This document shows positions 6,802-35,114 of a stretch of 35,193 bases of DNA, one piece after another. Source of the stretch: a virus. Taxonomy: Duplodnaviria; Caudoviricetes. Below the pieces are notes generated by a model that saw only the letters and a list, made by a program, of their open reading frames with translations, did no database searches and had not been told where the DNA came from. The position numbers and the translations under genes are program-made. Location of the stretch: positions 1 through 35,193 of the IMG/VR virus record IMGVR_UViG_3300042377_001068; one strand, 5' to 3'. The first letter of the stretch is position 1, and each line of letters opens with the position of its first letter.

Positions 6802-6803
6802 AT

Positions 6804-9392: not shown

Positions 9393-9448
9393 ATGGATAA
9401 ATATAAGAGAACCCCACAAAAACGCAAGACGTTTTTTCTTATGGGTAC

Positions 9449-17651: not shown

Positions 17652-20432
17652 TTAGTCGTTGGTCGTTTTTGCTGCGAGATAGTAGGTTGTGCCGCCGATT
17701 ACGATAGTCACGGTGCGGTTGGGCGAGGTCGGGCTGACGGTGTTGACGGTGTTTCCGATGGCAAGTGCTCCCGTGCTGCTCAACGCCCCAGTCACGGCGA
17801 GGCCGGTCGCGGAGATGGTGAGGACACTTGTAACGCCATCCGCGCCAAGAGTCATTACCTTGCCGGGTGCGGCGCTATACAAGTTAAAGTTACCGTTGCC
17901 CGCACCAAAACCAACATATGCTCGTTCGGCGTAGCTGCCAGTGGAATTGTCTCGGTAGCTGATATAACCATAGCCTGTCGTGTCCAAATCAGCGGACGAG
18001 TTTATGCGAATCAATCCAATCGTTGAGGTTACATCTAACGCACCGGTCACGGCTAGGCCGGTCGTTGTGAACAATCCAACCGTTGAACCCGCAGGATTGA
18101 TGGCGATGGATGAAGCAACCAATGACAACGTCGCTCGCGTGCCTACATCGTCCGAGAAGGCTCCGATGATACCACCTCCAGAATAATAATTGTAGAGACC
18201 GCCAGAAGCCGATGCAAAAGCGGCCAAGGCACCTGTGCTGACAGAGTAAGAGTTTTTTGACAACCCCGTGCTCGACAACGCCCCGGTCACGGCCAAGCCG
18301 GTGGAGGAGACTCGCGCATACGAGGTTCCCGCTACGCCGAGATTAACGCCATAAGATGCGGCAACATTTAACCATACCTCTCCGGTTGAAGCTCGGCCAA
18401 CGTAGTTATTCGCGGACTGAAATTGCCAAAACACGTCGCCACCGCCAAAGTTTAATAGAGAATTTCCTGTGCCGGTGATACTGCCATCAACGGTTAAATT
18501 CCCCGCATCAGTAAGCTGAAGCCGAGCATTAGTTGCCGCCATATTAAGAATACGGACGGTGCTGCCATCCATGTCCATGATGCGCGTGCCCGATGTAGTT
18601 TGAAAATTTATGTTCGGTGAGTTGGCGGAGCCGTCGTTTAGGGTGAGGCCGGTAGTTGCCGACAACGCACCAGTCACAGCGAGTCCGGTGGAGGAGAGGG
18701 TGGCCCGATAAGTTCCAGCGATTGCAAGGTTGAGTTCGTCGCCGTTGTTGTTGTCGAGAACCGTGTTGTTTACGCCCTGCAAAATTCGGAAGTCCGCGTT
18801 TTGTCCCGTGCGCTTAGCGCGAAATTGAGTGGATGTGCCGGTCGAGGTGATCGTGCCGGTAGAATCCACACTCGTAAAAGCGCCCGTGCTCGGCGTCGCC
18901 GCTCCCACGGTGCCGTTGTATCCGCCCGTCGCACTCAACGCTCCCGTCACACTTAATCCGGTTGAGCTTATGTCCAACACTTTTGCGGCACTAATACTTA
19001 TTCCAATATTATTTGCACCAATTCTATACATTCCACTCGTTGTATCAGTTGCCAAGATTAATGATGGTAACAGTACGGTTCCGGCAGCTAATGATAATAC
19101 ATTATTTGATGTTATATTACCTACCACACCCAACGACCCTGTAATATTTACACTACCAGTAAACAATTGTGTGTCTGTTGACTTTGTACCAAAAATATTA
19201 CTACCACTTGCATAAGCAATACTGCTTGTAATTGTTACTACACTTAGTGCAGTTACTGAAATAGCTGATGCTGTAATTTGACCAACTGTAATATTATTAG
19301 AATTTGTGAATGCTGTTCCACCACCGTTGCTTAATTGAGCAGATGCTGAAACAACATTATTTGGTAATACATAAATGTTTGGAGCATACGAAGCACTAAC
19401 TGCATTTAATGCGTATGAAGCTGTTGTTGAATAAGAGGCACTAACTGCATTTAATGCGTATGAAGCTGTAACAGCCCAACTGCTTGTGATGCTATATAAT
19501 GAACCTGTAATAAAGTTGCCATTGGTACCACTTGTACCTGCTGTGCCAGACACAGCTGAACTTGCTGCTACCCAGCTGCCTGTTCCGTTAAAGTAATATA
19601 CTTTTAAGTCACCTGTGGTTGTATCCCACCATAATGAACCTGTGTATGGATCAACTGGCGCTGTGTCAGATGTTGTTACAGAAACGCTGTTGCCGCTTGA
19701 GCCAGCTGTGCCACTTGTACCCGACGAACCGTTTGCGCCACTGCTACCTGCTGTGCCACTGCTGCCACTGGTACCTGCCGAGCCACTTGTGCCAGTAGAA
19801 CCTGACGAGCCACTGGTGCCGTCTGTACCACTGGTACCGGATGAACCACCGGCACCGCTTACGCCACTGGTACCTGCCGATCCACTTGTGCCAGTAGAAC
19901 CGGATGAACCGCTTGTGCCAGTAGAACCGGACGAGCCGCTTGTGCCAGTAGAACCCGACGAGCCACTGGTGCCGTCTGTACCACTTGAGCCAGATGAACC
20001 GCCAGCTCCGCTCACACCGCTGGTACCTGCCGAGCCACTTGTGCCGGTAGAACCTGACGAGCCGCTTGAGCCATCTGTACCACTTGAGCCAGACGAACCG
20101 CCAGCTCCACTAGCACCGCTTGTGCCACTACTACCTGCTGCACCATTAGCACCATTAGCACCAGCCGCACCACTTGTGCCACTAGTGCCACTACTACCGT
20201 TGTTACCACTTGTGCCGGATGTTCCACTAACACTTAATGCATACGACGCCGTTAAAGCTGTATCTGCCGTACCTGCACTAACAGCATATGAAGCTGTTAT
20301 TGCTGTAGTAGTATATGACGCTGTTAAAGAATTTAAGGCAGACACTGAATTGTTAGAATTCAATGCATGTGATGCTGATATCACCGTTGACTGGTTTGCT
20401 GCTACATTGAGATTTCTTAATAGTGTTGCCAT
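17652..20432 (-). CDS. Tail fibre-like protein with Gly-X-Y stalk and modular C-terminal half
   Basis: TASY repeats; ~60 G-X-Y triplets; GSLWWDTTTGDLKVYY motif; five TGL(A/S)VTGAL repeats. Confidence 0.85.
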   Translation of the reverse strand: MATLLRNLNVAANQSTVISASHALNSNNSVSALNSLTASYTTTAITASYAVSAGTADTALTASYALSVSGTSGTSGNNGSSGTSGTSGAAGANGANGAAGSSGTSGASGAGGSSGSSGTDGSSGSSGSTGTSGSAGTSGVSGAGGSSGSSGTDGTSGSSGSTGTSGSSGSTGTSGSSGSTGTSGSAGTSGVSGAGGSSGTSGTDGTSGSSGSTGTSGSAGTSGSSGTAGSSGANGSSGTSGTAGSSGNSVSVTTSDTAPVDPYTGSLWWDTTTGDLKVYYFNGTGSWVAASSAVSGTAGTSGTNGNFITGSLYSITSSWAVTASYALNAVSASYSTTASYALNAVSASYAPNIYVLPNNVVSASAQLSNGGGTAFTNSNNITVGQITASAISVTALSVVTITSSIAYASGSNIFGTKSTDTQLFTGSVNITGSLGVVGNITSNNVLSLAAGTVLLPSLILATDTTSGMYRIGANNIGISISAAKVLDISSTGLSVTGALSATGGYNGTVGAATPSTGAFTSVDSTGTITSTGTSTQFRAKRTGQNADFRILQGVNNTVLDNNNGDELNLAIAGTYRATLSSTGLAVTGALSATTGLTLNDGSANSPNINFQTTSGTRIMDMDGSTVRILNMAATNARLQLTDAGNLTVDGSITGTGNSLLNFGGGDVFWQFQSANNYVGRASTGEVWLNVAASYGVNLGVAGTSYARVSSTGLAVTGALSSTGLSKNSYSVSTGALAAFASASGGLYNYYSGGGIIGAFSDDVGTRATLSLVASSIAINPAGSTVGLFTTTGLAVTGALDVTSTIGLIRINSSADLDTTGYGYISYRDNSTGSYAERAYVGFGAGNGNFNLYSAAPGKVMTLGADGVTSVLTISATGLAVTGALSSTGALAIGNTVNTVSPTSPNRTVTIVIGGTTYYLAAKTTND
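17781..18962. repeat. Five dispersed 27-nt repeats encoding TGL(A/S)VTGAL
   Basis: Copies begin at 17781, 18036, 18276, 18663, 18936. Confidence 0.8.
19690..20225. repeat. 9-nt-period Gly-X-Y (GTS/GSS) coding repeat
   Basis: Gly at every third residue in the 926-aa protein; boundaries approximate. Confidence 0.85.
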
Positions 20433-20491: not shown

Positions 20492-20704
20492 TTATGTACC
20501 AAACAGGGTCATCATTTGAGTTAAGCAATTATTGTTATTATCAAAAGCAATCATAACAGTGTTGCTGTGACCAGAAAAAGTTATATCAGTAAATGTTGAT
20601 AAATCATATGAAAGCCAGTTAGATGGTACTGTCATATATACAGGTATAGATGGTGCTACAGAGTCTATGCAGCTTTGAATTTGTTGAGATACTAGTGTTG
20701 GCAT
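20492..20704 (-). CDS. Small hypothetical protein
   Basis: 70-aa ATG ORF filling the gap, 12 nt after the upstream gene. Confidence 0.6.
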   Translation of the reverse strand: MPTLVSQQIQSCIDSVAPSIPVYMTVPSNWLSYDLSTFTDITFSGHSNTVMIAFDNNNNCLTQMMTLFGT

Positions 20705-20716: not shown

Positions 20717-21760
20717 TTATGTATAGTTGAATAATAATGTATGATTTGTGCCGGTTGTTTCCGTATTAGAAAGAGTAAATCCAAGAATATTATTTGAAGC
20801 ATCTTTAACTACCAAGCTTGACGGAAATGATCTTACCATAGTCATATCACGCAATCTTCCAGCAAAATAATTTGTTGATATATTAAAACAACGTATAGGA
20901 ACTTTAATAAGTTTGCCGCTTATTGTTGTATAGTTTGTTCCATATACATTGGCTAAATTTCTATCCGTTGCTATAGTATTTAGTGATGTTGAACCTGGCA
21001 AGAATGTTACAAATTTTGGATAACCTGTCGTTGTAAGTGGAGAAGTTGTACTATGATTAAACAATGAATGACCGGCACCTAAAGTATCCGTAAATAACGT
21101 AGCAGATACTCCTTTGCTAAGATTAGTTGATTCAACACCGCTTGTTGCAACACCATAAACTCTTCCATCAGATTCTGCGGCATATGATGAACTTTGTTCT
21201 GGATCTAATAAAGCGCCAATTACCGCAGCAGTGCATACAGCCACAGTTGGGTTATAAAATACAACAGCAATTGCTTCTTTTGATTCATATATTGTTAATT
21301 TTACACCTGCAACAAAACTCGCTTGTCTAATTATACGAGCATATCCGCTGGAATATGAACCCGAGCCAAAGGGATATAAACTTGTCCATTGTGTAAATGA
21401 TCCACTAGCATTTTTAACAACAGCACCGTGCAAAATAAGTGAAGCATATGCAGACTCATTTGTAACAACTGTTGGGGTTGCGCTACTAACAGCGCCCGTA
21501 CTGCTCTTTCCAGAAAAAATAACAGATTGACTAACACTTGTTTGAAATCCGGGAAATAAATATACCGCTTCTGTATTAGAACCAGTGACGAACTTGCTTG
21601 GCATTTGCCATGCACTACCGCTACCAAGTGTTCTTGTAGAACCATCATGATACAATGACCCCGTAAGCATGTCGTATATAATATTGAGCGTGCCGCTCAT
21701 AGACGCTGTTGATATAACTCTGACTGGCAATTTTCTCCATTGTAATGCTGGTAAGCTCAT
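20717..21760 (-). CDS. WRKLP-family paralog A6 (putative virion/fibre-associated protein; pairs with A3)
   Basis: MSLPALQWRKLP, YDMLTGS, GSGSAW, SQSVIF, KNASGSF, YPFGSGSY, YESKEA, DPEQ, GRLRD. Confidence 0.85.
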   Translation of the reverse strand: MSLPALQWRKLPVRVISTASMSGTLNIIYDMLTGSLYHDGSTRTLGSGSAWQMPSKFVTGSNTEAVYLFPGFQTSVSQSVIFSGKSSTGAVSSATPTVVTNESAYASLILHGAVVKNASGSFTQWTSLYPFGSGSYSSGYARIIRQASFVAGVKLTIYESKEAIAVVFYNPTVAVCTAAVIGALLDPEQSSSYAAESDGRVYGVATSGVESTNLSKGVSATLFTDTLGAGHSLFNHSTTSPLTTTGYPKFVTFLPGSTSLNTIATDRNLANVYGTNYTTISGKLIKVPIRCFNISTNYFAGRLRDMTMVRSFPSSLVVKDASNNILGFTLSNTETTGTNHTLLFNYT

Positions 21761-21782
21761 AGTATTTAATTTTTAAATTTTA

Positions 21783-22880
21783 TTAGTATTTTAAACATGC
21801 TGTGTGATTTTGTGCCGATTCAACCGAAGATATAGTATACCCAATTATTTTGTTATTTGGATTTCTTAGTGTTTCGTTGGCTGTTCTATTTTTTATAGCA
21901 ACAATATCACGCAATCTTCCTACAAAATAAGTATTTGATAAGTTTGCATTACCACAACATCTAATCGGGGTTTCAATAGTTATATCTGTTGCATTGCTCG
22001 ATGCAAACGTGTCGTCTATAAATTTTTCTGCCAAAGCTCCAAAAAATAAATTAGTTTGTGGTTGAAACATTACAAATTTTGTAGCTTTATAAAAGGAATC
22101 ACTTGTAGCCCCAGCGCCGCCTTCATAATCTCCATTGTTTTCAAATAAGGCGTGATAGTAGTTTAAAGTCAAAAAGCTACTATAAAATCCACCCAGTACG
22201 CCGTTCGTGTTGCTATTTATTAAATTGGATGCGGCAATGCATCCATATAATCTATTATCAACTTCTGCATCCAATGATGTTGTGGTTTGCTCTGGGTCGA
22301 TGATAGCACCGGCAATAAATACTTGAGCATCCAACGCCGCAGTTTGCGTAACCACGGCAATGGCTTCTTTTGATTCATATATGATAAGTTTATCCAGACC
22401 GGCTGGTAACGGTGTCATTCCTGTATATCCCATAGAATAAGATCCACTGCCAAATGGATATCTACTAGTCCATTCTGTAAATGATCCACTGGCATTCTTA
22501 ACTAAAGCACCATATAAACTTCCTGTACTAATAACTATCGGTCCAGATCCTGCGGAGCTTGCGCGACTTCCAGATAGTGTTGGAGGAATTGCTGAACTTG
22601 ATGCGCCAGTTTTACTTTTACAAGCAAAAATAACAGATTGACTTATTACTGTTTGAAAACCCGGAAATACATATACTGCTTCTGTATTAGAACCAGTAAC
22701 AAATTTAGTTGGCATTTGCCAAGCACTGCCACTGCCAATAACACGCGCGGAACCATCGCTATAAAACGATCCTGTTAGCATGTCATATATTGTGTCCAAG
22801 AAATACGACGAAGTTGCAGTGATATTTGATGCAAATACTCTGGCTGGTAATTTTCTCCATTCTAGTGGTTGTAAGCTCAT
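21783..22880 (-). CDS. WRKLP-family paralog A5 (pairs with A2)
   Basis: Same conserved blocks; DAEVDNRLYG. Confidence 0.85.
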   Translation of the reverse strand: MSLQPLEWRKLPARVFASNITATSSYFLDTIYDMLTGSFYSDGSARVIGSGSAWQMPTKFVTGSNTEAVYVFPGFQTVISQSVIFACKSKTGASSSAIPPTLSGSRASSAGSGPIVISTGSLYGALVKNASGSFTEWTSRYPFGSGSYSMGYTGMTPLPAGLDKLIIYESKEAIAVVTQTAALDAQVFIAGAIIDPEQTTTSLDAEVDNRLYGCIAASNLINSNTNGVLGGFYSSFLTLNYYHALFENNGDYEGGAGATSDSFYKATKFVMFQPQTNLFFGALAEKFIDDTFASSNATDITIETPIRCCGNANLSNTYFVGRLRDIVAIKNRTANETLRNPNNKIIGYTISSVESAQNHTACLKY

Positions 22881-22901
22881 AATGTTATATATTGTTAAAT
22901 T

Positions 22902-23942
22902 TTACGAAAAATCCAGCATCACAGAATCAGTTGCGGAATCTTCTTTTCCACTTAAAACAAATCCAATAGTGTTTCCGGATGAATTGTTTCTAATTACGCT
23001 ATTGTTTAGATTGTCTTTAATGACAGATATTTCTCGAAGTCTTCCAAGAAAATATGTTGGCAACAACGTCGCATCTAATGCGCAACATTTTAGTGGAGTT
23101 TTTACAAATTTTCCAGATAATGTTGTATAATTTAATGTTGGATAATATTGCCCTGTACTTATATATTTTTCGGTAGAAACTGTATTAGTAAGTGAATAGC
23201 CTGGTAAGAAAACAACAAACTTTGCATTTGAAGTCCCCGTTCCGTGGGATAAAAAATATGAAGCCGCCGAAGCGTCAGTTAAAAAAGTAGAAACCAAGCC
23301 ACCGGAACCTCCCGATGCCAATCCATATATTCTTCCATCAATCTCAGCATCAAGCGAAGATGTTGGAGAAGATTGTTCTGGGTCTATTATAGCACCGGCG
23401 ACTGCTCCATAATTTATTGCTGTACCAACATCATAAATAAATAATGCAATTGCTTCTTTGGATTCATATATTGAAATTCTGTCCGTCATTCCAATCGCCG
23501 TCATAACTGGACCTATGCGAGCATACCCCGTAGAATATGATCCACTGCCGAATGGATATAAACTTGTCCATTGGGTAAAAGAACCGCTGGCGTTTTTTAC
23601 AGTAGCAGCTACTAAATAATTTGCCGTAGTCGATCCGTTTGTTGCAATTGCAAAATTTCCACTGCTTGTAACTCCCGTAACATTTTTTCCAGCAAAAATA
23701 ACAGATTGACTTACTGTGGTTTTGTATGGAGGAACACAATATACTGCTTCGGTGTTTGATCCGGTTATAAATCTACCAGATGCCGACCAAGCACTTCCAC
23801 TCCCCACGATTCTCAGCGATCCGTCATGATATAAAGATCCTGTGAGCATATCATATACCGTGTTTAAAACAGAAGTAATTGTTTGGTCGGTTTGAAATGT
23901 TCTAACCGGTAGTTTTCTCCATTCTAATGGTTGTAAGCTCAT
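22902..23942 (-). CDS. WRKLP-family paralog A4 (pairs with A1)
   Basis: Same conserved blocks; DPEQSSPTSSLDAE. Confidence 0.85.
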   Translation of the reverse strand: MSLQPLEWRKLPVRTFQTDQTITSVLNTVYDMLTGSLYHDGSLRIVGSGSAWSASGRFITGSNTEAVYCVPPYKTTVSQSVIFAGKNVTGVTSSGNFAIATNGSTTANYLVAATVKNASGSFTQWTSLYPFGSGSYSTGYARIGPVMTAIGMTDRISIYESKEAIALFIYDVGTAINYGAVAGAIIDPEQSSPTSSLDAEIDGRIYGLASGGSGGLVSTFLTDASAASYFLSHGTGTSNAKFVVFLPGYSLTNTVSTEKYISTGQYYPTLNYTTLSGKFVKTPLKCCALDATLLPTYFLGRLREISVIKDNLNNSVIRNNSSGNTIGFVLSGKEDSATDSVMLDFS

Positions 23943-23946
23943 AAAA

Positions 23947-24573
23947 TTATATAGATGATGTTGTGTAAGATGCGATCATATTAAACGTGTATAGTGAAGA
24001 TCCGGCAAGGTTTAAAATTTGAAAGCTGTCGGTATCAACAATAAAATCTTTGGTTTGAAAATCAAAAATGTTTGGAACCGAGGCAAGATTTAAAACTTCT
24101 CCATCAATAAAATAATCAACGTCGCGAACGTCAAAAACATTTGCTGTATTTGAAAAATCTAAATAAAACTCTGGCCCAACAGGAGTTGATGATTCTGGAT
24201 CTGAAAAATTAAAAGAAGAAGATTGAAATCCATTGGTATATACAGAATCTTCTGTGTAATTTACAGATGAAATCGTAGAGTCGAGTGACGACCATCCAAT
24301 ATTTCCATTTACAACGGTTAGATATAAACTATCTTGAGCAGGAAATACGGTCAATGGATTGCCGTCTACACCAAATCCTATAACAGACAATGCACTTAAT
24401 GATGTACCAAAACTACTAGAAAGCCAACTGCCACTGGCATTTTTAGCAAAAGATGCACTAACGGCATTTAATGCATATGATGCTGTACCAAATACGGCTG
24501 ACGTAGCAATCGTGGCAGCAATTAATCCGCTGCCGCTAACTATACCACTTTTATATGTTGTATAACGTGCCAT
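23947..24573 (-). CDS. Adaptor-like paralog B3 (208 aa)
   Basis: MA...YKS...GTASY...NASGSWLSSSF...IGF...YLTV.NG..GWS shared with B1/B2; acidic repeated tail. Confidence 0.8.
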   Translation of the reverse strand: MARYTTYKSGIVSGSGLIAATIATSAVFGTASYALNAVSASFAKNASGSWLSSSFGTSLSALSVIGFGVDGNPLTVFPAQDSLYLTVVNGNIGWSSLDSTISSVNYTEDSVYTNGFQSSSFNFSDPESSTPVGPEFYLDFSNTANVFDVRDVDYFIDGEVLNLASVPNIFDFQTKDFIVDTDSFQILNLAGSSLYTFNMIASYTTSSI

Positions 24574-24579
24574 AATTTT

Positions 24580-24882
24580 TTATGTTGCTACCCATTGTAC
24601 TGTGCCATTTGCCAGTGAAAGATATCCATTATTTACTGTAGTAGGAAATACTACAGGATTTCCACCACGATCAAATCCAATTAATCTTTGCACATTAGAT
24701 GTTCCAACATTAAAATCACTGCCTGTCCACTCTCCACTTGCATTAAGAGCAAACGAAGATGAAATCACAGATTGATTGTTATTACTATACGAAGCTGTAC
24801 CTAATAAACTAGCAGTAACAGCAGACATTCTTGTAATGCTGCCGCTTATAGTACCACTTTTAAAGTTTATTATTTTAGCCAT
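24580..24882 (-). CDS. Adaptor-like paralog B2 (100 aa, N-domain only)
   Basis: Aligns by eye with the first ~100 aa of B1 and B3. Confidence 0.75.
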   Translation of the reverse strand: MAKIINFKSGTISGSITRMSAVTASLLGTASYSNNNQSVISSSFALNASGEWTGSDFNVGTSNVQRLIGFDRGGNPVVFPTTVNNGYLSLANGTVQWVAT

Positions 24883-24893
24883 ATAAAATTATA

Positions 24894-26003
24894 TTATGAA
24901 TAGTTTAGTAAAACCGCATGACTTGATGTTGTTTCACTTTGTGCCAAACTAAATCCAAGTATGTTGTTTGAAGAATCTCTAACTACAACATTAGACGGCA
25001 TATTTTTTATTAAAGAAATATCGCGCAATCTTCCCAAAAATATTCCGCGTGAACCTAACGGATTGCTGCTGATTTCTTGCGTCCTACAATATAATGGAGT
25101 GCGAATCATTTTTCCACTTATTGTGGTAAATCCGTTTTGTAATAAAGTAGCCGCCGCTCCACCTGATAAGGAATTGGATACTCTGTCCGTGGACACGGTG
25201 GCAGATGTACTTGTTCTTGGTATAATTGTTTGAAAAAATGAATAATACGAAGAATTGTTAGTGTACGTATCTTGGTCTACAAAAATTCCACCAGCGCCAG
25301 TGGTACTGTTGGTATGGAAATTTACGCCGACACCAGAATTTACCCACGCACTTCCAGTACGTTGTGCGCCAGTTGTAGCAACTGCATATATTCTACCATC
25401 AATTTCTGTGTTCATAGAAGCAGATTGTTCTGGATCTATAATAGCTCCCGCCATTCCAACTATGCAATATCTAGTATTTGGGTGTGACAAATATACACAC
25501 AATGCTTCTTTTGATTCATATATTACAAATTTAGTACTTCCTGTAATAACACTGGCATTTGCAAATGGTATATATGGGGACATATATGAACCAGATCCAA
25601 ATGGATATGTACTTGTCCATTGTGTAAATGATCCGCTGGCATTTTTTACTGTTGATATATATAAAAAAGACGACGTGTATGATAAACCATTTAAAGCATC
25701 GGATGGCTGACTACTGCTGCTAGGGGCTGTGGTGCTTCTACCAGAAAATATCACAGACTGACTAACACTTGTTTGAAAACCAGGAAATACATATACTGCT
25801 TCTGTATTAGAACCAGTAACAAATTTAGTTGGCATTTGCCAAGCACTGCCGCTACCAAGTGTGCGTGCGGAACCGTCGTGGTATAATGAGCCAGTAAGCA
25901 TGTCATATATCACATTTAAACAATATGAAGCGGTAACATTTGGCAAAAGTGCCGGTAAAGTTCTAACTGGTAATTTTCTCCATTGTAGTGGTGGTAAGCT
26001 CAT
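24894..26003 (-). CDS. WRKLP-family paralog A3
   Basis: MSLPPLQWRKLP and all family blocks. Confidence 0.85.
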   Translation of the reverse strand: MSLPPLQWRKLPVRTLPALLPNVTASYCLNVIYDMLTGSLYHDGSARTLGSGSAWQMPTKFVTGSNTEAVYVFPGFQTSVSQSVIFSGRSTTAPSSSSQPSDALNGLSYTSSFLYISTVKNASGSFTQWTSTYPFGSGSYMSPYIPFANASVITGSTKFVIYESKEALCVYLSHPNTRYCIVGMAGAIIDPEQSASMNTEIDGRIYAVATTGAQRTGSAWVNSGVGVNFHTNSTTGAGGIFVDQDTYTNNSSYYSFFQTIIPRTSTSATVSTDRVSNSLSGGAAATLLQNGFTTISGKMIRTPLYCRTQEISSNPLGSRGIFLGRLRDISLIKNMPSNVVVRDSSNNILGFSLAQSETTSSHAVLLNYS

Positions 26004-26017
26004 ATGATTTTAAATTT

Positions 26018-27085
26018 TTAATATTTGAATAATAACGCTGAATTATTTGAAACTTCACTTGTAGATAATGTATATCCAAAAATATTTCCCGAAGAATTTT
26101 TAACTACCGCATTTGAAAAAAACGAATCTGTTATAGTAATATCTCGCAATCTTCCAAGATAATAATTAACAGAACCGCTGGATACGCATTGCAATGGAAG
26201 ATCTAAGGGCTGTGCTGAAAAATCTCTAAACGATGAAAAATTATAATAGTCCAGAGTATAAGGTCTTGGTTTTAGCACCGTAGCCGTTGTTAATGAACTG
26301 GACTGCGGCGTAAACACAGTAAACATTGGTGTATTATCAGAATTGTTACTACTCGTTGAAAAATGCGAAAGAAATTGTCGCATATCTGTATAAAAAGTAC
26401 TAGTAATACCATATAAATTTCCTTGAGTTGTTACACTGGGCACTCCGGACGTAATAATTCCATATAGTCTATTGTCAAGTTCTGCATCTACTGATGTTGC
26501 TACTTGTTCTGGATCAATAATTGCACCTGCAATAACTGCACATGTTTTATCGTTTACATAATCGTATATTACACCGGCAAATGCCTCTTTAGATTCATAC
26601 AAGCTTATATTTGAATTTCTATCTATAAGATTTAAACTTGTCCATCGGCCATAACCAGTAGAATACGAACTACTGCCGAATGGATATTGACTTGTCCATT
26701 GAGTGAATGATCCAGATTCTGCATTTTTAACACAGGCAATATTAAGAAGTGAAGATGAATAAGAAAATTCTCCCGTAAGAACTGGTGGTATAGCACTGCT
26801 ACTTGCGCCCGTCGAATTTCTTCCTGAAAAAATAACAGATTGACTCATAGCAGTTAATGTTGGCGGAAATATGCCAACGGCTTCTACATTAGATCCTGTT
26901 GTGAATTTAAACGGAGTTTTCCATGCACTACCGCTACCCATAATACGAGTTGAACCGTCGTGGTATAATGAGCCAGTAAGCATGTCGTATATTACGTTCA
27001 ATAATATATTTGTTGTTAATGAACCTGTGACATAGTTCAAATTTCTAACTGGTAATTTTCTCCATTGTAGTGGTTGTAAGCTCAT
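26018..27085 (-). CDS. WRKLP-family paralog A2
   Basis: Family blocks; DAELDNRLYG. Confidence 0.85.
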   Translation of the reverse strand: MSLQPLQWRKLPVRNLNYVTGSLTTNILLNVIYDMLTGSLYHDGSTRIMGSGSAWKTPFKFTTGSNVEAVGIFPPTLTAMSQSVIFSGRNSTGASSSAIPPVLTGEFSYSSSLLNIACVKNAESGSFTQWTSQYPFGSSSYSTGYGRWTSLNLIDRNSNISLYESKEAFAGVIYDYVNDKTCAVIAGAIIDPEQVATSVDAELDNRLYGIITSGVPSVTTQGNLYGITSTFYTDMRQFLSHFSTSSNNSDNTPMFTVFTPQSSSLTTATVLKPRPYTLDYYNFSSFRDFSAQPLDLPLQCVSSGSVNYYLGRLRDITITDSFFSNAVVKNSSGNIFGYTLSTSEVSNNSALLFKY

Positions 27086-27100
27086 ATGATTTTAAATTTT

Positions 27101-28159
27101 TTAACTATAATTAAACATTATTGTTTCTCCCAAACTTACTTCACTTGCACTCAATACAAATCCAAGTGTCGTGCCCGTTGAACTATTTCGTATAATAGAA
27201 TTGTTTGCTGATTTTTTTGTGAATGTAATATCTCTAAATCTGCCAATATAGTTTGTATTAAATTCTGTTATTGCACATTTGATAGGATGTGTTACGGTTT
27301 TTCCAGACAATGTTGTATAATATGCAGAAGGCGAAAATCCTTGATTAGAATTAAATTTTTCAATGCTACCATATCTTGTTGAATTTTGAGATGGGGCAAA
27401 TACAATAAATCTTGGATAGCCAATAGAACCGGTGGTGTAATTGTGAGTAAATGCTTGTATCGTCGAGCCATCTGTTAAAAATGTTGCGCTTAGTGCTCCC
27501 AACACTGGACCAGTTGATGTAACACCATATAATCTACCATCTGTTTCAGCATCAAATGAGGATGTTGGAGAAGATTGTTCTGGATCTACTATAGCACCAG
27601 CAATACCGCCATAATTTGAATTGCCACTTGTTTCATAAAAGAATATAGACAATGCTTCTTTTGATTCATAAATTGTGATTTTATCTCCTACACTTATAGA
27701 AGAAGCTGTCGGTGAAATTGCTACATATCCTGTAGAATATGATCCACTACCAAACGGGTATGTACTATTATATTGAATGAATGAGCCACTGGCATTTTTA
27801 ACATTTGCTATATAAACATAGTTGGCAGTTAGTGCCGGTTCATTACTTGCTGTTTGTGGCAATGATGTTGTGGTTGAAGTAGATTCACGTCCGGCAATAA
27901 TAACAGATTGACTAACTTGAGTTTGATATGCCGGAAACATATATAATGCTTCTGTTTTTGATGATACAGTGACTTTGGTTGGAATTTGCCATGCACTACC
28001 ACTACCGACAACACGAATTGAACCATCAAAATATACAGAACCTGTCATCATGTCGTATATATTATCTAACAGTCTACTCACACTTTGAGTTGCGGAAGTC
28101 CCAGCATACCATAAAGTACGTGTTGGCAATTTTCTCCATTCTAATGGTTGTAAGCTCAT
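27101..28159 (-). CDS. WRKLP-family paralog A1
   Basis: Family blocks; DPEQSSPTSSFDAE. Confidence 0.85.
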   Translation of the reverse strand: MSLQPLEWRKLPTRTLWYAGTSATQSVSRLLDNIYDMMTGSVYFDGSIRVVGSGSAWQIPTKVTVSSKTEALYMFPAYQTQVSQSVIIAGRESTSTTTSLPQTASNEPALTANYVYIANVKNASGSFIQYNSTYPFGSGSYSTGYVAISPTASSISVGDKITIYESKEALSIFFYETSGNSNYGGIAGAIVDPEQSSPTSSFDAETDGRLYGVTSTGPVLGALSATFLTDGSTIQAFTHNYTTGSIGYPRFIVFAPSQNSTRYGSIEKFNSNQGFSPSAYYTTLSGKTVTHPIKCAITEFNTNYIGRFRDITFTKKSANNSIIRNSSTGTTLGFVLSASEVSLGETIMFNYS

Positions 28160-28162
28160 ATG

Positions 28163-28786
28163 TTATGTTGATCCTGTTGTATATCCTATATTTGTAAATA
28201 TAGGCGTCATTGAAGATGTTATTGAAAATAAACTAATAATTAATTCAATTGCATCCGGATACTCTATATAATTATATGTTATATCATTGAATGTTGGTGC
28301 CATTGAAGATGTTATTGAAAATAAACTACCAATATTTAATTCAATTGCATCCGGATAATCTCGCATTGTATTGCTATTAAAATCAATAACTCTTGGTAAA
28401 GCAATTGCGGAAAAATATACCTCATTATCTATCGTTGGAACTAATGTGGCATTTTTTATAGCAGGTATTGACCATCCCGCTGCTCCATTTTTTACAGTTA
28501 AATATGGCCAAGCATTGCCACCATAATTTACTCCTAGATATGCACCCGTTGGTGGAGCATATGTTGTAGTAACGCCAACAGGATCAAATCCTATAATAGC
28601 TTCAACACTTGATGAAGGTAGATTAAAACTACTAGATAGCCAACTGCCACTAGCATTGCTGGCAAACGCCGCTGTAACGAAATATAATCCATAACTGGCT
28701 GTTCCTGTTAAATCAGCCACAATAGACGGCACTTGCATTATACTGCCGCTAATAACGTCACTTTTATATGTTATAAATTTTGCCAT
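28163..28786 (-). CDS. Adaptor-like paralog B1 (207 aa)
   Basis: Shared B N-domain; duplicated YPDAIEL...SLFSITSSM in tail. Confidence 0.8.
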   Translation of the reverse strand: MAKFITYKSDVISGSIMQVPSIVADLTGTASYGLYFVTAAFASNASGSWLSSSFNLPSSSVEAIIGFDPVGVTTTYAPPTGAYLGVNYGGNAWPYLTVKNGAAGWSIPAIKNATLVPTIDNEVYFSAIALPRVIDFNSNTMRDYPDAIELNIGSLFSITSSMAPTFNDITYNYIEYPDAIELIISLFSITSSMTPIFTNIGYTTGST

Positions 28787-28891: not shown

Positions 28892-31800
28892 TTATAGATC
28901 GTATATTGTGCCTAAAGTTATATTACCGAAAGAAGCATTACTGTCTGTTGTACCATCGCCGCTAGTTGTAATAAGACGTAGATATACCAGTGCTTGAGCA
29001 CCTGCTACAATAGCTTCTTTGCCACTGTTCTTTGTGCCCGTTGAACCTAGACTTACGGTTGGATAATTACTACCATTTGCTGTTAAGTAATTCCATGTAG
29101 ATTCATCTGTAGAATATTGTACTCTTATATCACCTAGTGTACTTGTTGTACCAGATTCAACGCGAACCATCAGACTGCATGATGTTACATTAGTTAAATC
29201 TGCTTGTATGCGAAGTTCTGTACCAATTTCAATTTCGCCGGATGTAATATTTGTAATAGTTGTAATAGCATCAGATGTGGCAATGAACGGAATATATGTT
29301 GTGATTTGCTTGTTTAATGCACCGCCGCCACCACCGCCACCATTTAAAGCGTATGAAGCAGTAAGTGCATACGAAGATGATACAACATTATTTGCCCAGC
29401 TACTTGTAATTTCATATAACGAGCCTGTTACAAGTGTTGTTCCACCACCGCCACCACCGCTACCACCACTTAAAGCATAACTTGCTGTTAAAGCAAATGC
29501 ACTATACGAAGAACTATCAATCGAGCCGAGCAAGAATGATGCTGTAGCAGCTTTAACTGCCCAACTACTTGTACCGAACAATGATGATGTAACTGCGGTT
29601 GCAATCAAAGTACCATTGATATTAGCATTACCATTTACATCTAATGGATATGCTGGAGTTGATGTATTAACACCTACAAATGATCCTGTAACAACAAGTG
29701 CATTTGTACCAAAGCGTCCCATTGATACTCTGTCATCAGCATATACTTCAAAGATTGGAAAGCCTGGATAATCGTAAATTTGAGCAAGTGCGCTTGATGA
29801 AACATCGCTGATACTCATTATACTTTGTCCAGATGGACCAGCAAATACAATACTACCACCAGATGCTGCCATACTGATACTACCAGAACTATCTGGGAAT
29901 ACAATAACAGATGCGGTGATTTGACCAAAGGTTACATTACTTCCGGTATTAAATGCAAGATCTGCTCCGTTTGTTAATTGAGCACTGCTTGACACCATAT
30001 TAGCCGGTGTATATCCACTGGTTCCGCTTGTGCCTGTTATACCAGAAGAACCAGATGAGCCGCTATCGCCACTTGTACCGCTTGAACCGGAGGCACCAGA
30101 AGCGCCACTGGTTCCAGAAGAACCGGTCAATCCGCTAGTGCCACTTGTGCCAGAAGAACCTGACGAGCCACTGGTGCCGGTAGAACCTGACGAGCCGCTG
30201 GTACCATCTGTACCGCTCGACCCAGAAGAACCACCTGCGCCGCTTATACCACTGGTACCTGCTGTACCACTTGAACCACTGGTGCCGGTAGAACCTGACG
30301 AGCCACTTGAGCCATCTGTGCCAGAGGAACCACTTGTTCCTGTAGATCCAGATGAACCACTTGTGCCAGAAGAACCTGATGAGCCACTGGTGCCGGTAGA
30401 ACCCGACGAGCCGCTGGTACCATCTGTACCGCTTGATCCAGAAGAACCACCTACGCCGCTTATACCACTGGTACCTGCTGTACCTGCTGTACCACTTGAA
30501 CCACTTGAGCCATCTGTACCAGATGAACCACTTGTGCCAGAAGAACCTGACGAGCCACTGGTGCCGGTAGAACCTGACGAGCCACTGCTGCCATCTGTAC
30601 CAGATGAACCACTTGTTCCTGTAGATCCAGATGAACCACTTGTGCCAGAAGAACCTGATGAGCCACTGGTGCCGGTAGAACCTGACGAGCCGCTGGTACC
30701 ATCTGTACCGCTTGATCCAGAAGAACCACCTACGCCGCTTATACCACTGGTACCTGCTGTACCACTTGAACCACTTGTGCCATCTGTACCAGATGAACCA
30801 CTTGTACCAGATGAACCACTTGAGCCGGTAGAACCTGACGAGCCACTTGAGCCATCTGTGCCAGAGGAACCACTTGTTCCTGTAGATCCAGATGAACCAC
30901 TTGTGCCAGAAGAACCTGACGAGCCGCTGGTACCATCTGTACCGCTTGATCCAGAAGAACCACCTACGCCGCTTATACCACTGGTACCTGCTGTACCACT
31001 TGAACCACTTGAGCCATCTGTGCCAGAGGAACCACTTGTTCCTGTAGATCCAGATGAACCACTTGTGCCAGAAGAACCTGATGAGCCACTGGTGCCAGTA
31101 GAACCTGACGAGCCACTTGAGCCATTTGCTCCGCTGGTACCAGAAGTTCCGCTAAAACTTAAAGCGTATGAAGCAGTAAGAGCATAACTTGATGTACCAA
31201 ATAGTGACGATGTTATACCGCCGTCTACATTCATACTACCTGTTAGTATAAAGCTACCAGTTAATAACAATGCTCCACTGATTTCAAGAGTATCTGCATT
31301 AGTAGAGAAAAGTGTGCTGCCACTATCACCTGTTGCACTAAATGCACCAGATACAGATAACGAACCTGTAATAACAACAGATTGATTTAGTACATTTACA
31401 AACGAAGCTGTTTTTGCAGTTAAAGCAAAACTTGATGTACCTAAAAATGTGTCTGTGCTTGCTTCGTCTATATTAGCCCAAGCAACATAACTTGCTGTCT
31501 TGGCATTTAGCACAAACGATGCGGTTTGAGCCGTAGTTACAAACGATGCGGTTTGTGCAGTAACAATATATGATGCTGTTGCAACATATGATGCCGTTTG
31601 TGCTGTGGTTACAAATGACGCTGTTAGTGCAAATGATGCTGTTGTAGCAAGTGAAGCAGATTGCGCCCAGCTACTTGTGATGTTGTATAATGAGCCAGAT
31701 GTTAAAGCAGCCCCACCACCACCGGCAGAGTTAAGAGCATACGATGCAGTTAATGCTTGTACTGCATAACTTGATGTACCAAAAAGTGAAGATGTTATGC

Positions 31801-32659
31801 CACCATTTACATTTAAACTTCCTGTTAAAATCATTGAACCTGTAACAAGTAAAGAACCTGTAATTTCAATAACATCGCCGTCAATAGTAAGTGGAGTATC
31901 ACCAGCAAGTGAACTATAACTCATAGAACCTGTAACCACAATCGCACCAGAAACTACAAGAGTTTGATTTAGTTGAGTTACAAATGATGCTGTTCTAGCA
32001 AGTGAAGCTGTTTGAGCAAATGAAGATGATAATACAAATGATGCTGTTAGTGCTGTATTAGCAAAACTTGATGTACCAAGGAATGTATCTGTGCTTGCTT
32101 CTTGTACATTTGCCCAAGATATATATGACGCGGTTATAGCAAATGATGCTGTATTTGCCCAGCTACTTGTAATGTTATATAACGACCCAGATGTTAGTGT
32201 TGTTCCACCACCACCGCCAGCAGAGTTAAGAGCATAACTAGCAGTAAGTGCATATGAGCTTGAACCAAATAAACTACCTGTGATACCAGCCGATACACTT
32301 AATGAACCTGTTACTAGTACACTGCCGCTAACATCAAGATTTGTTTGTGGAGTTGATTTACCCACACCTACTCTGCTACCTGTAACAACAAGTGCATTTT
32401 TATTAAATTGACCCATTACTACTTTGTCATCACTTGATACTTCAAGTATTGGTAAACCAGAAATGTCACTAACAGACATTAAGCTGCCGGACATATTATC
32501 AACAATACTAAACAACGATCCTGATTTGCCCATGAATGCAACTTGACCTTCTGGCAATACTTCTAATCTGATACTAGCAGACGAGTTTACGCTGCCACTG
32601 AATTGTATCGTTGGACCGCTGGTTGTGCCTCTATTGGGTGTTATTAGGATATCTGACAT
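28892..32659 (-). CDS. Long tail fibre-like protein with collagen-like Gly-X-Y stalk
   Basis: 1255 aa; duplicated P(I)(L/F)EV..DD.V.MG.F..NALVVTGS domain; TAS(F/Y) repeats; roughly 125 G-X-Y triplets. Confidence 0.85.
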   Translation of the reverse strand: MSDILITPNRGTTSGPTIQFSGSVNSSASIRLEVLPEGQVAFMGKSGSLFSIVDNMSGSLMSVSDISGLPILEVSSDDKVVMGQFNKNALVVTGSRVGVGKSTPQTNLDVSGSVLVTGSLSVSAGITGSLFGSSSYALTASYALNSAGGGGGTTLTSGSLYNITSSWANTASFAITASYISWANVQEASTDTFLGTSSFANTALTASFVLSSSFAQTASLARTASFVTQLNQTLVVSGAIVVTGSMSYSSLAGDTPLTIDGDVIEITGSLLVTGSMILTGSLNVNGGITSSLFGTSSYAVQALTASYALNSAGGGGAALTSGSLYNITSSWAQSASLATTASFALTASFVTTAQTASYVATASYIVTAQTASFVTTAQTASFVLNAKTASYVAWANIDEASTDTFLGTSSFALTAKTASFVNVLNQSVVITGSLSVSGAFSATGDSGSTLFSTNADTLEISGALLLTGSFILTGSMNVDGGITSSLFGTSSYALTASYALSFSGTSGTSGANGSSGSSGSTGTSGSSGSSGTSGSSGSTGTSGSSGTDGSSGSSGTAGTSGISGVGGSSGSSGTDGTSGSSGSSGTSGSSGSTGTSGSSGTDGSSGSSGSTGSSGSSGTSGSSGTDGTSGSSGTAGTSGISGVGGSSGSSGTDGTSGSSGSTGTSGSSGSSGTSGSSGSTGTSGSSGTDGSSGSSGSTGTSGSSGSSGTSGSSGTDGSSGSSGTAGTAGTSGISGVGGSSGSSGTDGTSGSSGSTGTSGSSGSSGTSGSSGSTGTSGSSGTDGSSGSSGSTGTSGSSGTAGTSGISGAGGSSGSSGTDGTSGSSGSTGTSGSSGSSGTSGTSGLTGSSGTSGASGASGSSGTSGDSGSSGSSGITGTSGTSGYTPANMVSSSAQLTNGADLAFNTGSNVTFGQITASVIVFPDSSGSISMAASGGSIVFAGPSGQSIMSISDVSSSALAQIYDYPGFPIFEVYADDRVSMGRFGTNALVVTGSFVGVNTSTPAYPLDVNGNANINGTLIATAVTSSLFGTSSWAVKAATASFLLGSIDSSSYSAFALTASYALSGGSGGGGGGTTLVTGSLYEITSSWANNVVSSSYALTASYALNGGGGGGGALNKQITTYIPFIATSDAITTITNITSGEIEIGTELRIQADLTNVTSCSLMVRVESGTTSTLGDIRVQYSTDESTWNYLTANGSNYPTVSLGSTGTKNSGKEAIVAGAQALVYLRLITTSGDGTTDSNASFGNITLGTIYDL
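30013..31150. repeat. Hierarchical 9-nt-period Gly-X-Y tandem repeat
   Basis: GTAGTSGISG(V/A)GG anchor recurs four times, 216, 279 and 234 nt apart. Confidence 0.9.
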
Positions 32660-32710: not shown

Positions 32711-33439
32711 TTAAAGTCCAAATCTTGATTTATTTGAGTTGTAGTTTTGTAGTAACTGCGATGCTGTTAATTCTCCGGTATAAAGTCGATAACTTGCTAT
32801 ATTTCCTTTCATATAACCATTTGTTACATTGCATCCACTGTTTCCGTCTGCGCCTATTATATTACAGTTGGAACCTTCTCCACCCGCCGGTCCAAAATTA
32901 TTTGAACCCACCGCTATTTGAGCACCGTTTATATAAATTTTATAAGATGATGCTGTATTTTTGTTACCGCCGGTATAAACAAATTGCATGCATATCCATT
33001 TATTTATATAATCACTGTTTGTCACAGGAGTGCCATATTGTGTGGATAATCTAAAAGTGGGTATAATATTATATGTTCCCGACGGGTTATACAACACAAT
33101 GAAAAATTCACTGTCTTGTTTAATTCTGATTGGCATTATATACTCACCACTAGCTAAAGTTTTATTAATATACCACCACAGTTCTCCGGTAAATGCACTG
33201 GTTCCTGTACCAACTATATTCTGGCTACCAATAGATATATAATCATTAGTTCCATCAAACACAATACTACCACCATCTGCACTATTAAATGTTGGACCGT
33301 TAGTTAATGTTCCATTATTATTGTTGCCGCTCAAGTCACTCCAACTTGTTCCACTTTTTGGATAGCTTTTAATATTAGCAGCATCAAGGCTTAATACTAA
33401 ATTATCTGTAACAGATTTAATTGGTGCCATTACACTCAT
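32711..33439 (-). CDS. LamG/concanavalin A-like lectin domain virion protein
   Basis: LVLSLDAAN.KSYP.SGTSW.DLSGN.N.GTL.NG...FDGTNDY; KIYING; G.IA..RLY...LT...LQNYN..K.RFGL. Confidence 0.85.
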   Translation of the reverse strand: MSVMAPIKSVTDNLVLSLDAANIKSYPKSGTSWSDLSGNNNNGTLTNGPTFNSADGGSIVFDGTNDYISIGSQNIVGTGTSAFTGELWWYINKTLASGEYIMPIRIKQDSEFFIVLYNPSGTYNIIPTFRLSTQYGTPVTNSDYINKWICMQFVYTGGNKNTASSYKIYINGAQIAVGSNNFGPAGGEGSNCNIIGADGNSGCNVTNGYMKGNIASYRLYTGELTASQLLQNYNSNKSRFGL

Positions 33440-34143
33440 AGTGCAAACCTTCCTTTAGTTGCGTTATAGTTTTGTAAGATTTCGGATGCTGTTAGTGCTT
33501 TGTTGTATATTGATAGTTGTGCTATGTTTGAATTTGAAAAATATAGTGTCCTTCCTCCGCCAATATTATATTTTCTTGTTGGATTTAAATCGTAATAATT
33601 AGCAGTATTTCCAGAATAACTTCCAGAAAATACTGCATTTAAGTAAATAGTCAATAGTCCTGTACTTATATCTCTTGTCAATGTGACATATTTCCATTGA
33701 TTTAATCCTAAAGACCCTGCACTTGTGTCGATCATATTAATATTAGAACCGTTTGTAGTAGGTCTTCCCCATATTTGCCAACGATTATCAAATTGATACA
33801 TCGCCAGTCCTGCACCAGCGTTCACTCTATATCCATTTGTTTCAAAAAATACTCTATATCCTCCAGTGTTTGTCTTCGCATAATACCATAAATTAATAGT
33901 AAAACTATCACTAAAAGTACTAGTTGTTTCTTGAGTATCAACATAATCATCACTTCCATCAAACACAATACTTCCACCATTTGCACTACTAAATGTTGGT
34001 CCATTAACCAATGTTCCAGCATTTCCATTGCCACTCAAGTCGTTCCAACTTGTTCCACTGCTTGGATAACTCTTATTATTACCAGCATCCAAGCAAAGCA
34101 CAAGTCCATCTGATACAATTTTTGGTCCGTTGTTATAACTCAT
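33436..34143 (-). CDS. LamG/concanavalin A-like lectin domain virion protein
   Basis: Same N- and C-terminal blocks; NQWKYVTLT, IYLN; ATGA overlaps with neighbours. Confidence 0.85.
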   Translation of the reverse strand: MSYNNGPKIVSDGLVLCLDAGNNKSYPSSGTSWNDLSGNGNAGTLVNGPTFSSANGGSIVFDGSDDYVDTQETTSTFSDSFTINLWYYAKTNTGGYRVFFETNGYRVNAGAGLAMYQFDNRWQIWGRPTTNGSNINMIDTSAGSLGLNQWKYVTLTRDISTGLLTIYLNAVFSGSYSGNTANYYDLNPTRKYNIGGGRTLYFSNSNIAQLSIYNKALTASEILQNYNATKGRFAL

Positions 34144-34811
34144 AGTGCAAACCTTCCTTTATTTGCGTTATAGTTTTGTAATATTTCTGATGCTGCGAGT
34201 GCTTTGTTGTATATTGATACTTGTGCTATGTTTCCAGTAAACCAATCTCTTTGTCCGCCGGGAAGACCATCATTAATTGTTCCTCCTAAACTTAAAGCGG
34301 TAGTATCCAAAGATCCAGCACCACACACTGTCGTATTTATATTAGTAATACCGTCACCATAAACTGTTAAGGAAGTTCCCAACCTTACCATCACTAAAAA
34401 GTGCCATTGATTATTACTTAAAGTTATAGAATTATAATCAGTGCTCTGTTTTACCCCCCCTCCCCACAAAGTAGGACTGTTGTTTGATCCAAACCAAAAT
34501 CCTGTGTCAAATTTTTTGTCAGCAATTCTGGCATATCCAATACTAGAGATACTCTTAAACCACGAGCATATAGTAAAATCATTTAATTGTGTAGTGTATG
34601 ATGTCTGCGTATAATCATTCGTCCCATCGAAACTCAAAGACCCCCCATCGGCACTATTATACCCAACTCCATTCACGAGAGTTCCATTATTATTGTTACC
34701 GCTCAAATCAAACCAACTTGTTCCACTGCTTGGATAACTCTTAGTATTACCAGCATCCAAGCAAAGCACAAGTCCATTTGTTACAATTTTTGGTGAGTAT
34801 AGCGTTGCCAT
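34140..34811 (-). CDS. LamG/concanavalin A-like lectin domain virion protein
   Basis: Same blocks; FTICSWFK, NQWHFLVMV, F.GNIAQVSIYNKAL. Confidence 0.85.
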   Translation of the reverse strand: MATLYSPKIVTNGLVLCLDAGNTKSYPSSGTSWFDLSGNNNNGTLVNGVGYNSADGGSLSFDGTNDYTQTSYTTQLNDFTICSWFKSISSIGYARIADKKFDTGFWFGSNNSPTLWGGGVKQSTDYNSITLSNNQWHFLVMVRLGTSLTVYGDGITNINTTVCGAGSLDTTALSLGGTINDGLPGGQRDWFTGNIAQVSIYNKALAASEILQNYNANKGRFAL

Positions 34812-34847: not shown

Positions 34848-35114
34848 TCACGCACCAGAACCAGAATTTGGAGATGTCCATTCTGCTGTTGCTAATATAT
34901 CTAATATTTCAGTATATGTATATGGTCCTTCTGTGCCTGTTAGTGTAGCTACAAAAGATGGAGTTTCATTGTCCCATTTAACAAATGTTTTTGAGCCATC
35001 AACTGATTTTCTTACAGTGTCAGATGATGTTTCGCATACAGCTGTAAAGTCTACAGATTCTAATTGGGAAACTGGGAATATTAAAAAGTTTCTATTTTCG
35101 TATAATTCGCTCAT
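34848..35114 (-). CDS. Small acidic phage protein adjacent to LamG genes
   Basis: 88 aa; ETS..TVRKSVDG.KTFVKW and YT..EIL.IL...EW pattern recalled from phage fibre regions. Confidence 0.75.
   Translation of the reverse strand: MSELYENRNFLIFPVSQLESVDFTAVCETSSDTVRKSVDGSKTFVKWDNETPSFVATLTGTEGPYTYTEILDILATAEWTSPNSGSGA

What the first reader, a model, noticed from the sequence alone, without database searches (positions are those of the whole stretch)
20717..28786. Duplicated 'adaptor + three-subunit' cassette: candidate undescribed heterotrimeric adhesin system
Seen: transcription order B1(207)-A1-A2-A3-B2(100)-B3(208)-A4-A5-A6, with gaps of 3-22 nt, between two collagen-like fibre genes. The six A paralogs pair by position. 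A1/A4 share LQPLEW, DPEQSSPTSS.DAE, YTTLSGK and IRN.S.G.T.GFVLS. A2/A5 share DAE.DNRLYG and lack T.SGK. A3/A6 share MSLP.LQW, TTISGK and VV.D.SNNILGF. So three distinct subtypes were kept in order through duplication of a ~4 kb unit, each triplet led by a ~208-aa B gene. I recognise no domain family for A or B. Inference: each cassette builds an obligate A/A'/A'' heterotrimeric head attached by B to a fibre, giving two alternative receptor-binding assemblies. Most characterised phage fibre tips are homotrimers.
Basis: partly seen in the sequence, partly recalled or inferred. Interest (0 to 1): 0.85.

Follow-up and report, generated by a model that had tools for sequence, protein, structure and literature searches.

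The report
Six-paralog phage arm-subunit gene array
An uncultured lake phage carries six old copies of a gene whose product is predicted to fold like the globular subunits that stack into the side arms of Pseudomonas phage JBD30, and because relatives carry one, two, three, five or eight copies, the array likely builds a variable chain-like host-gripping arm rather than a fixed three-subunit head.

Summary
The array is real: B1-A1-A2-A3-B2-B3-A4-A5-A6, gaps 3-22 nt, in a myovirus tail region. The positional pairing is detectable (top 3 of 15 pairs by exclusive residues; 4.2-kb-spaced DNA repeats), so an old block duplication is plausible, though wider trees leave it unresolved. The obligate-heterotrimer reading fails its own test: 53 bounded loci carry 1 (44), 2 (4), 3 (1), 5 (1), 6 (window) or 8 (2) copies, and two close relatives lack exactly A4. 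A6's confident model matches JBD30 gp47/gp48 (VIA Z 18.3, 272 residues, next 4.8), which form six-subunit arms of heterodimers, not trimeric heads. A gene of that size follows an A gene in 51 of 64 loci (control 30 of 277), once per array. Best reading: a JBD30-like bead-chain arm, B a likely anchor, C a likely cap or chaperone; no interaction was tested (complex prediction unavailable). The scan noted JBD30-like paralog arrays on other DNA eight times before. New variant of a known kind.

The parts
28892..32659 (-). Upstream collagen-like (Gly-Ser/Thr-X) fibre gene, 1255 aa; context
   Evidence: Pfam Collagen E 3.8e-49, PHROG tail fibre; carries weak copies of the B N-terminal motif
28163..28786 (-). 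B1, 207 aa; likely anchor, ends in the Thr/Ser-rich tail that precedes a first A
   Evidence: no Pfam/PHROG hit
27101..28159 (-). A1, 352 aa; first-position class
   Evidence: 82-83% identical to orthologs in L006/L007
26018..27085 (-). A2, 355 aa
   Evidence: orthologs 51-52%
24894..26003 (-). A3, 369 aa
   Evidence: orthologs 54-56%
24580..24882 (-). B2, 100 aa; short B lacking the C-terminal tail; a short-plus-long B pair also heads the arrays of L001, L002, L005, L008, L018
   Evidence: 81-86% identical in L006/L007
23947..24573 (-). B3, 208 aa; likely anchor
   Evidence: AF2 model unusable, pLDDT 40
22902..23942 (-). A4, 346 aa; first-position class; absent from relatives L006 and L007
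21783..22880 (-). A5, 365 aa; residues about 199-318 replaced in strain X20
20717..21760 (-). A6, 347 aa; predicted JBD30 gp47/gp48 fold; loop about 214-251 replaced in strain X20
20492..20704 (-).
   Evidence: 94% identical in L007; no family at Pfam/PHROG
17652..20432 (-). Downstream collagen-like fibre gene, 926 aa; context

Best explanation
The six A genes are old, separately conserved paralogs whose products are predicted to have the globular fold of phage JBD30 gp47/gp48 and likely co-assemble, pair by pair, into a short chain-like virion arm that would grip a host surface structure. Shown: gene order, paralogy, variable copy number, conserved neighbours B and C. Predicted: the fold. Inferred from JBD30: subunits stack as dimers into a bent arm rather than closing into a three-fold head. 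Inferred from gene context: B is a short fibre-like protein whose C-terminal tail likely docks the first subunit on the virion; C, present once per array whatever the number of A genes, likely caps the chain or chaperones its assembly; the hypervariable loops, mostly in the C-terminal half, likely face the host. The array grew by tandem and block duplications in one lake-phage lineage and can shrink by crossover between near-identical gene starts, as the A4-less relatives suggest.
For: AF2 model of A6: pLDDT 94.3, pTM 0.93. VIA-align over 48,161 chains: 8rk3 Z 18.3, rmsd 4.2, 272 of 347 residues, next entry Z 4.8. Foldseek PDB: top two rows are 8rk3 chains G and K, prob 1.00/0.98, E 1.4e-3/9.4e-3, TM 0.43/0.48; chain lengths fit gp48 and gp47. 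BFVD: 9 matches at E<=0.001, all viral, several named virion structural proteins; three further rows (E 1.7e-3, 0.12, 0.035) have the lengths of 0305phi8-36 gp158/159/160, adjacent MS-detected virion proteins of a myovirus (mapping by length). JBD30 arms are three gp47/gp48 heterodimers and contact the type IV pilus in a 26 A map (PMC11445458). Context: sheath, tube, fibres, LamG genes. All intact A genes from arrays of three or more form one clade, 100/97. Orthologs are kept by position with substitutions biased to third codon positions. A close strain has variable blocks of A5 and A6 replaced while the pieces over A1, A2 and A4 stay about 94-97% identical. A 58-82-aa gene follows an A in 51 of 64 loci with downstream sequence versus 30 of 277 control ORFs; 16 of 25 clusters at 50% identity.
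Against: No sequence-level link to gp47/gp48: hhalign probability 0.4 and 0.2, no PHROG hit for the six A or for 103 distant homologs, identity about 10%, TM just under 0.5; a shared fold shows no function. Only A6 was modelled. 44 of 53 bounded loci have one A, so co-assembly of different paralogs is not required, and each window paralog could build its own homomeric arm. The array lies upstream of the sheath, not between tape measure and distal tail genes as in JBD30, so the attachment site is open. Homology between near-clade and distant C proteins is weak (hhalign prob 0.9; best cross-HMM E 2.6e-4 among 10 sequences, 0.48 among 12,267 frames); 13 of 64 loci lack such a gene, and JBD30 has none after gp48. 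A 2026 preprint assigns pilin tolerance of related Pseudomonas phages to the trimeric fibre, not to these arms.
Confidence: 0.58

Rival explanations
1. Each paralog forms its own homomeric JBD30-like arm or receptor-binding unit, and the array is a host-range repertoire of parallel adhesins sharing one chaperone (C) and a few anchors (B).
For: Five near-complete genomes have a single detectable A, so homomers likely work; A4 is dispensable in L006/L007; variable loops are replaced between strains; one C per array.
Against: Orthologs are held in fixed order across relatives; first-position subunits form their own class (82/88), which suggests positional roles; two B genes serve eight A genes in L001/L002; the solved example is heteromeric.
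Confidence: 0.24
2. One reading: each cassette builds an obligate A/A'/A'' heterotrimeric head joined by B to a collagen-like fibre, giving two alternative assemblies.
For: Positional pairing in the window; L005 has exactly B,B,A,A,A,C with orthologs of A4-A6; B sits before each triplet; 0305phi8-36 has three adjacent proteins that likely share the fold.
Against: Only 1 of 52 bounded loci other than the window has a multiple of three; B3-A5-A6 with two A genes in L006/L007; runs of 6+2 in L001/L002; the fold match is to dimer-chain subunits; in the 63-row tree A2 groups with L001/L002 gene 7 (96/93), not A5.
Confidence: 0.07
3. The A proteins are structural scaffold or decoration subunits of the head, neck or sheath, with no direct receptor role; the flanking collagen and LamG proteins do the binding.
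For: The array lies upstream of the sheath; in L022, L025 and L031 the single A lies a few genes before what I read by eye as a major capsid protein gene (recalled, not searched); lectin-like LamG genes and three fibre genes are adjacent.
Against: Hypervariable surface-type loops and strain-level block replacement fit host contact; the one solved homolog fold contacts pili (PMC11445458).
Confidence: 0.11

Closest known systems
Pseudomonas phage JBD30 gp47/gp48 tail-fibre-forming proteins (PDB 8rk3; Valentova et al. 2024, PMC11445458)
   Same: Whole-length predicted fold (Z 18.3, 272 residues); similar size; adjacent paralogous genes in a tail module; six subunits per JBD30 arm equals six genes here (possibly coincidence).
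   Different: No detectable sequence similarity; two genes at low identity in a siphophage versus 1-8 genes at 42-52% identity in large myoviruses; JBD30 has no B or C neighbour (gp46 before, gp49 after) and its arms are held by distal tail and upper baseplate proteins; receptor here unknown.
Bacillus phage 0305phi8-36 gp158/gp159/gp160
   Same: Three adjacent MS-detected virion proteins of a myovirus, flanked by small virion proteins gp157 and gp161; BFVD rows of matching length resemble A6.
   Different: Mapping is by length and accession order only; no sequence similarity to A or of gp161 to C; function unassigned; the passages I saw of PMC2147016 do not mention them.
Phage phiKZ hetero-hexameric fibre base (gp131 x3, gp133, gp134, gp135; PMC13250141)
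   Same: A tail-gene paralog family proposed to co-assemble into one heteromeric fibre part, so paralog co-assembly in phage fibres is in print.
   Different: Described as a helical bundle leading to a propeller-tipped gp131 trimer; no phiKZ chain appeared among the top fold matches of A6.
Pseudomonas phage Lydia gp67/gp68 (PMC11946847)
   Same: Predicted JBD30-like pair, showing the fold is spread beyond JBD30.
   Different: Two genes, siphophage, prediction only.

Membership tests
JBD30 gp47/gp48-type arm proteins | Whole-chain fold similarity to gp47/gp48 | tested here: met
   A6 model versus 8rk3: Z 18.3, rmsd 4.2, 272 aligned; Foldseek prob 1.00/0.98. Only A6 of six was modelled.
JBD30 gp47/gp48-type arm proteins | Sequence-level membership of the gp47/gp48 family | tested here: not met
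   hhalign of alignment A4 against gp47 and gp48 single sequences: prob 0.4, 0.2; 0 PHROG families for 6 window A and 103 homologs; PDB hmmsearch best E 0.24. Hence 'works like', not 'member'.
JBD30 gp47/gp48-type arm proteins | Encoded in a tail/virion module as adjacent paralogs | tested here: met
   position relative to tape measure and distal tail genes differs
JBD30 gp47/gp48-type arm proteins | Heterodimers stacking into a six-subunit arm on the baseplate | not tested
JBD30 gp47/gp48-type arm proteins | Binds type IV pili | not testable with these tools
   Host unknown; no cultured phage with an A gene found.
   1 of 52 bounded loci besides the window; whole-record searches
   Seen with six sequences and by exclusive residues; with relatives A1+A4 86/56 or 62/38, the other two not recovered but not rejected, p-AU 0.236 and 0.351; adjacency clade p-AU 0.053
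   B leads runs of 1, 2, 3 or 6 A genes in the near clade and is undetected in distant loci
Homotrimeric fibre/spike head | Trimeric beta-helix, coiled-coil or knob fold | tested here: inconclusive
   No such entry among top fold matches; oligomeric state not modelled

The most novel reading that the evidence does not exclude
B-(A)n-C is a widespread, undescribed three-part kit for bead-chain phage arms: an anchor tail nucleates the chain, position-specific A subunits add in gene order so that gene number sets arm length and composition, and the single small C protein caps it, which would answer how JBD30-type arms stop growing and let lake phages lengthen, shorten or re-tip an arm by one crossover.
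Probability: 0.2. Interest if true: 0.7.

Novelty: new variant of a known kind. Interest (0 to 1): 0.36.

Why it matters
The JBD30 arm is the only solved example of this fold that the searches found, yet an unnamed family with the predicted fold is common in uncultured phages (362 clusters at 50% identity) and has expanded to 3-8 position-specific copies in one lake lineage. If the arm reading holds, non-trimeric bead-chain appendages are a second general adsorption architecture beside trimeric fibres, and natural variants with 1, 3, 5, 6 and 8 subunit genes plus a candidate cap make the rules of arm length and order testable. It is not a new heterotrimeric adhesin system.

Tried and rejected
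No hits: Pfam and PHROGs for A, B, C; PDB sequence search for A, B, C (B's best row, E 0.003, is a split low-score match and was rejected); cultured-phage tblastn with A6 and P0146; GTDB scan with A3 (the A10 scan gave 5 MAG contigs, read as phage contigs in bins). Fused longer forms of A: none among 7994 candidates, weak evidence. B3 structure: pLDDT 40, unusable. ESM Atlas: A6 matches only unnamed viral clusters; C's pectate-lyase-labelled rows share 121 of 256 features and were not accepted. Complex prediction of A6 with C was not available, so no verdict. Promoter/terminator counts equal shuffles (38 vs 41.4; 6 vs 4.8): no sign that the two halves are separately expressed. Inverted repeats are short and no recombinase gene is in the window; listed read joints inside the array look like paralog cross-mapping (with 35 joints not shown; contigs drop rare variants), so active shuffling was not pursued. 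No RNA holder listed. My recollection that the 0305phi8-36 matches were the curly-fibre candidates was wrong for the triplet: they map to gp158-160; gp129 matches only weakly (E 0.12). A likeness of B's core to the T4 fibritin foldon is recalled only and no call supports it. Rows dropped: 21 duplicate loci before the counts; A fragments under 300 aa from trees; loci with under 1100 nt upstream or 300 nt downstream (21 of 74) from the copy-number tally.
Full report
Context. The window is a 35-kb virus record with all long genes on the - strand: LamG-domain genes, collagen-like fibre genes, an S74-chaperone fibre, a tail sheath and a T4 gp19-like tube. The tube is closest to Microcystis phage Mel-JY01 (62%) and Flavobacterium Immuto phages (53%), which does not fix the host. 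23 of the 24 listed holder runs are lake-water metagenomes, 8 flagged as possible sources.

Observation. Order, lengths and gaps are as stated. The A proteins are 42-52% identical in all pairs. Residues shared by exactly two paralogs put A1/A4 (26), A2/A5 (17) and A3/A6 (16) first of 15 pairs, next 11. The six-row tree shows the same pairs at 88/93, 68/72 and 94/93, and DNA repeats spaced about 4.2 kb link A1/A4, B1/B3 and A2/A5. An old block duplication is therefore plausible. Against a clean picture: the N-half tree does not pair A2 with A5; third-position identity is no higher within the named pairs; with relatives added, A2 groups with gene 7 of the eight-gene arrays (96/93), and A3, A5 and A6 sit in an open fork. 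AU tests reject neither the positional clades (p 0.236, 0.351) nor, narrowly, an adjacency clade (p 0.053) (29 of the 63 rows). The halves are unequal: B2-B3-A4-A5-A6-C corresponds gene for gene to the whole cassette of L005, and B1-A1-A2-A3 is the addition.

Copy number. Five collection scans that returned A loci gave 74 distinct loci including the window after 21 duplicates were removed; 53 have enough flank on both sides. They hold 1 (44 loci), 2 (4), 3 (1), 5 (1), 6 (the window) or 8 (2) A genes. These loci are not independent; they fall into 25 clusters at 50% identity. Whole-record searches of 10 records gave one match in five near-complete genomes and two partial ones, two in a 95%-complete record, and eight in two partial ones; a paralog as remote as gp47 is from gp48 could be missed. 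L006 and L007 are close relatives (A1 82-83%, B2 81-86%) in which the end of B3 joins the start of A5. A4 and A5 begin with about 40 nearly identical bases, so loss of A4 by crossover is the likely cause (inferred). An obligate three-subunit unit is thus not conserved even among the nearest relatives.

Fold. AlphaFold2 on A6 with a 150-row alignment gave pLDDT 94.3, pTM 0.93. Against 48,161 representative chains the only entry above Z 5 was JBD30 baseplate 8rk3 (Z 18.3, rmsd 4.2, 272 aligned, residues 10-347; next 4.8). Foldseek ranked 8rk3 chains G and K first, just above E 0.001; their lengths fit gp48 and gp47. In PMC11445458 (abstract, found passages, section 14 part 1 of 2) each of three lateral bent arms is three gp47/gp48 heterodimers, the two folds are similar, and the arm contacts the type IV pilus in a 26 A map. 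BFVD gave 9 viral matches at E<=0.001 and weaker rows whose lengths match 0305phi8-36 gp158-160, adjacent virion proteins by mass spectrometry. There is no sequence-level link to gp47/gp48. The family is large and unnamed: 362 representatives at E<=0.001 among 1.84 billion; the Atlas rows are unnamed, mostly viral.

Conservation pattern. Conserved blocks cover the predicted core strands; variable blocks lie near residues 141-152, 168-178, 207-248 and 256-276 of A6. Window-L007 orthologs differ most at third codon positions in all seven genes compared. In strain X20 the DNA for about residues 214-251 of A6 and 199-318 of A5 is replaced by unalignable sequence of similar length, while pieces over A1, A2 and A4 differ at 65/1115, 26/1024 and 67/1346 bases. 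This fits host-facing loops (inferred).

Partners. B homologs lie directly before the first A throughout the near clade, also in single-A loci; in L004 and L016 the B region is the C-terminal end of a 499-565-aa fibre-like protein (E 2e-25 and 4e-23 with a profile that did not include them). Long B proteins share a Thr/Ser-rich C-terminal tail that short B2 lacks; several distant loci have other upstream genes with similar tails (by eye). This supports B as an anchor but not as a per-triplet adaptor. C (70 aa) has 20 homologs. A 58-82-aa gene follows an A in 51 of 64 loci with downstream sequence, versus 30 of 277 other long ORFs by the same rule, and there is one per array for 1, 2, 3, 5, 6 or 8 A genes; in L001/L002 it sits after the sixth of eight. 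Near and distant C proteins share a hydrophobic pattern, but homology is only weakly supported; one counted gene (L089) is probably unrelated. No binding could be tested.

Mechanism. Most likely (0.58) the A proteins co-assemble as in JBD30 into a chain of globular subunits, anchored by B and finished or chaperoned by C, and grip a host surface structure. The main rival (0.24) is a set of separate homomeric arms. A preprint (10.64898/2026.03.17.712343; abstract and section 8) ties pilin tolerance in related Pseudomonas phages to the trimeric fibre, so even in JBD30-like phages the arm's part in specificity is open.

Literature and prior notes. Six full-text searches found JBD30, a predicted JBD30-like pair in phage Lydia (PMC11946847, passages) and a heteromeric paralog-built fibre base in phiKZ (PMC13250141, passages), but no description of this family, B or C; since the family has no name, that blank is weak. 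PMC2147016 (passages) does not mention gp158-160 by the terms I searched. Supplements were not read; the JBD30 appendix on the gp47/gp48 interface may bear on the chain model. I reached the JBD30 match before looking at the scan's notes; eight earlier AI notes describe JBD30-like paralog arrays of 3-8 genes on other DNA, one sharing words with A6. They are not independent support.

Verdict. Real feature; new variant of a known kind; interest 0.36. What this window adds is the natural A4-deletion, the copy-number series and the one-per-array C gene.

Noticed in passing
window 20492-20704 (-): 70-aa gene C right after A6, the most consistent neighbour of the A family across very different phages; no known family.
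   Followed up: yes
window 7404-9419 and 1862-3568 (-): Two large homing-endonuclease-like genes (PHROG 3339/559, Pfam DUF7487), one right after the sheath gene and one right after the tube gene.
   Followed up: no
window 4348-7388 (-): Non-structural genes between sheath and tube: NT5C-like nucleotidase, nucleotidyltransferase-like and FMN-reductase-like genes (weak Pfam hits).
   Followed up: no
window 32711-34811 (-): Three tandem LamG/concanavalin-like paralogs upstream of the fibre gene; L012 has a similar run.
   Followed up: no
window 34848-35114 (-); L004 11238-11510; L020 9305-9577: An 88-90-aa gene that looks alike by eye recurs near A modules and LamG genes; no Pfam or PHROG hit.
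   Followed up: no
window 12595-12885 (-); L001 17856-18146; L003 4634-4921: Conserved ~96-aa helical gene directly before the sheath gene in this lineage; no family hit.
   Followed up: no
window 19500-20432 (part laid): The Gly-Ser/Thr-X collagen-like repeat region attracts many contigs from other lake phages, with depth up to about ten times that of the array.
   Followed up: no
L034 10975-11397; L029 9929-12294: Single A genes occur in very different settings: before baseplate-wedge-like genes in L034 and before lysis-like genes in L029 (read by eye), so the module moves between tail types.
   Followed up: partly
window 28180-28333: B1 has an internal 61-nt tandem duplication near its 3' end, absent from the shorter L007 ortholog.
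   Followed up: no
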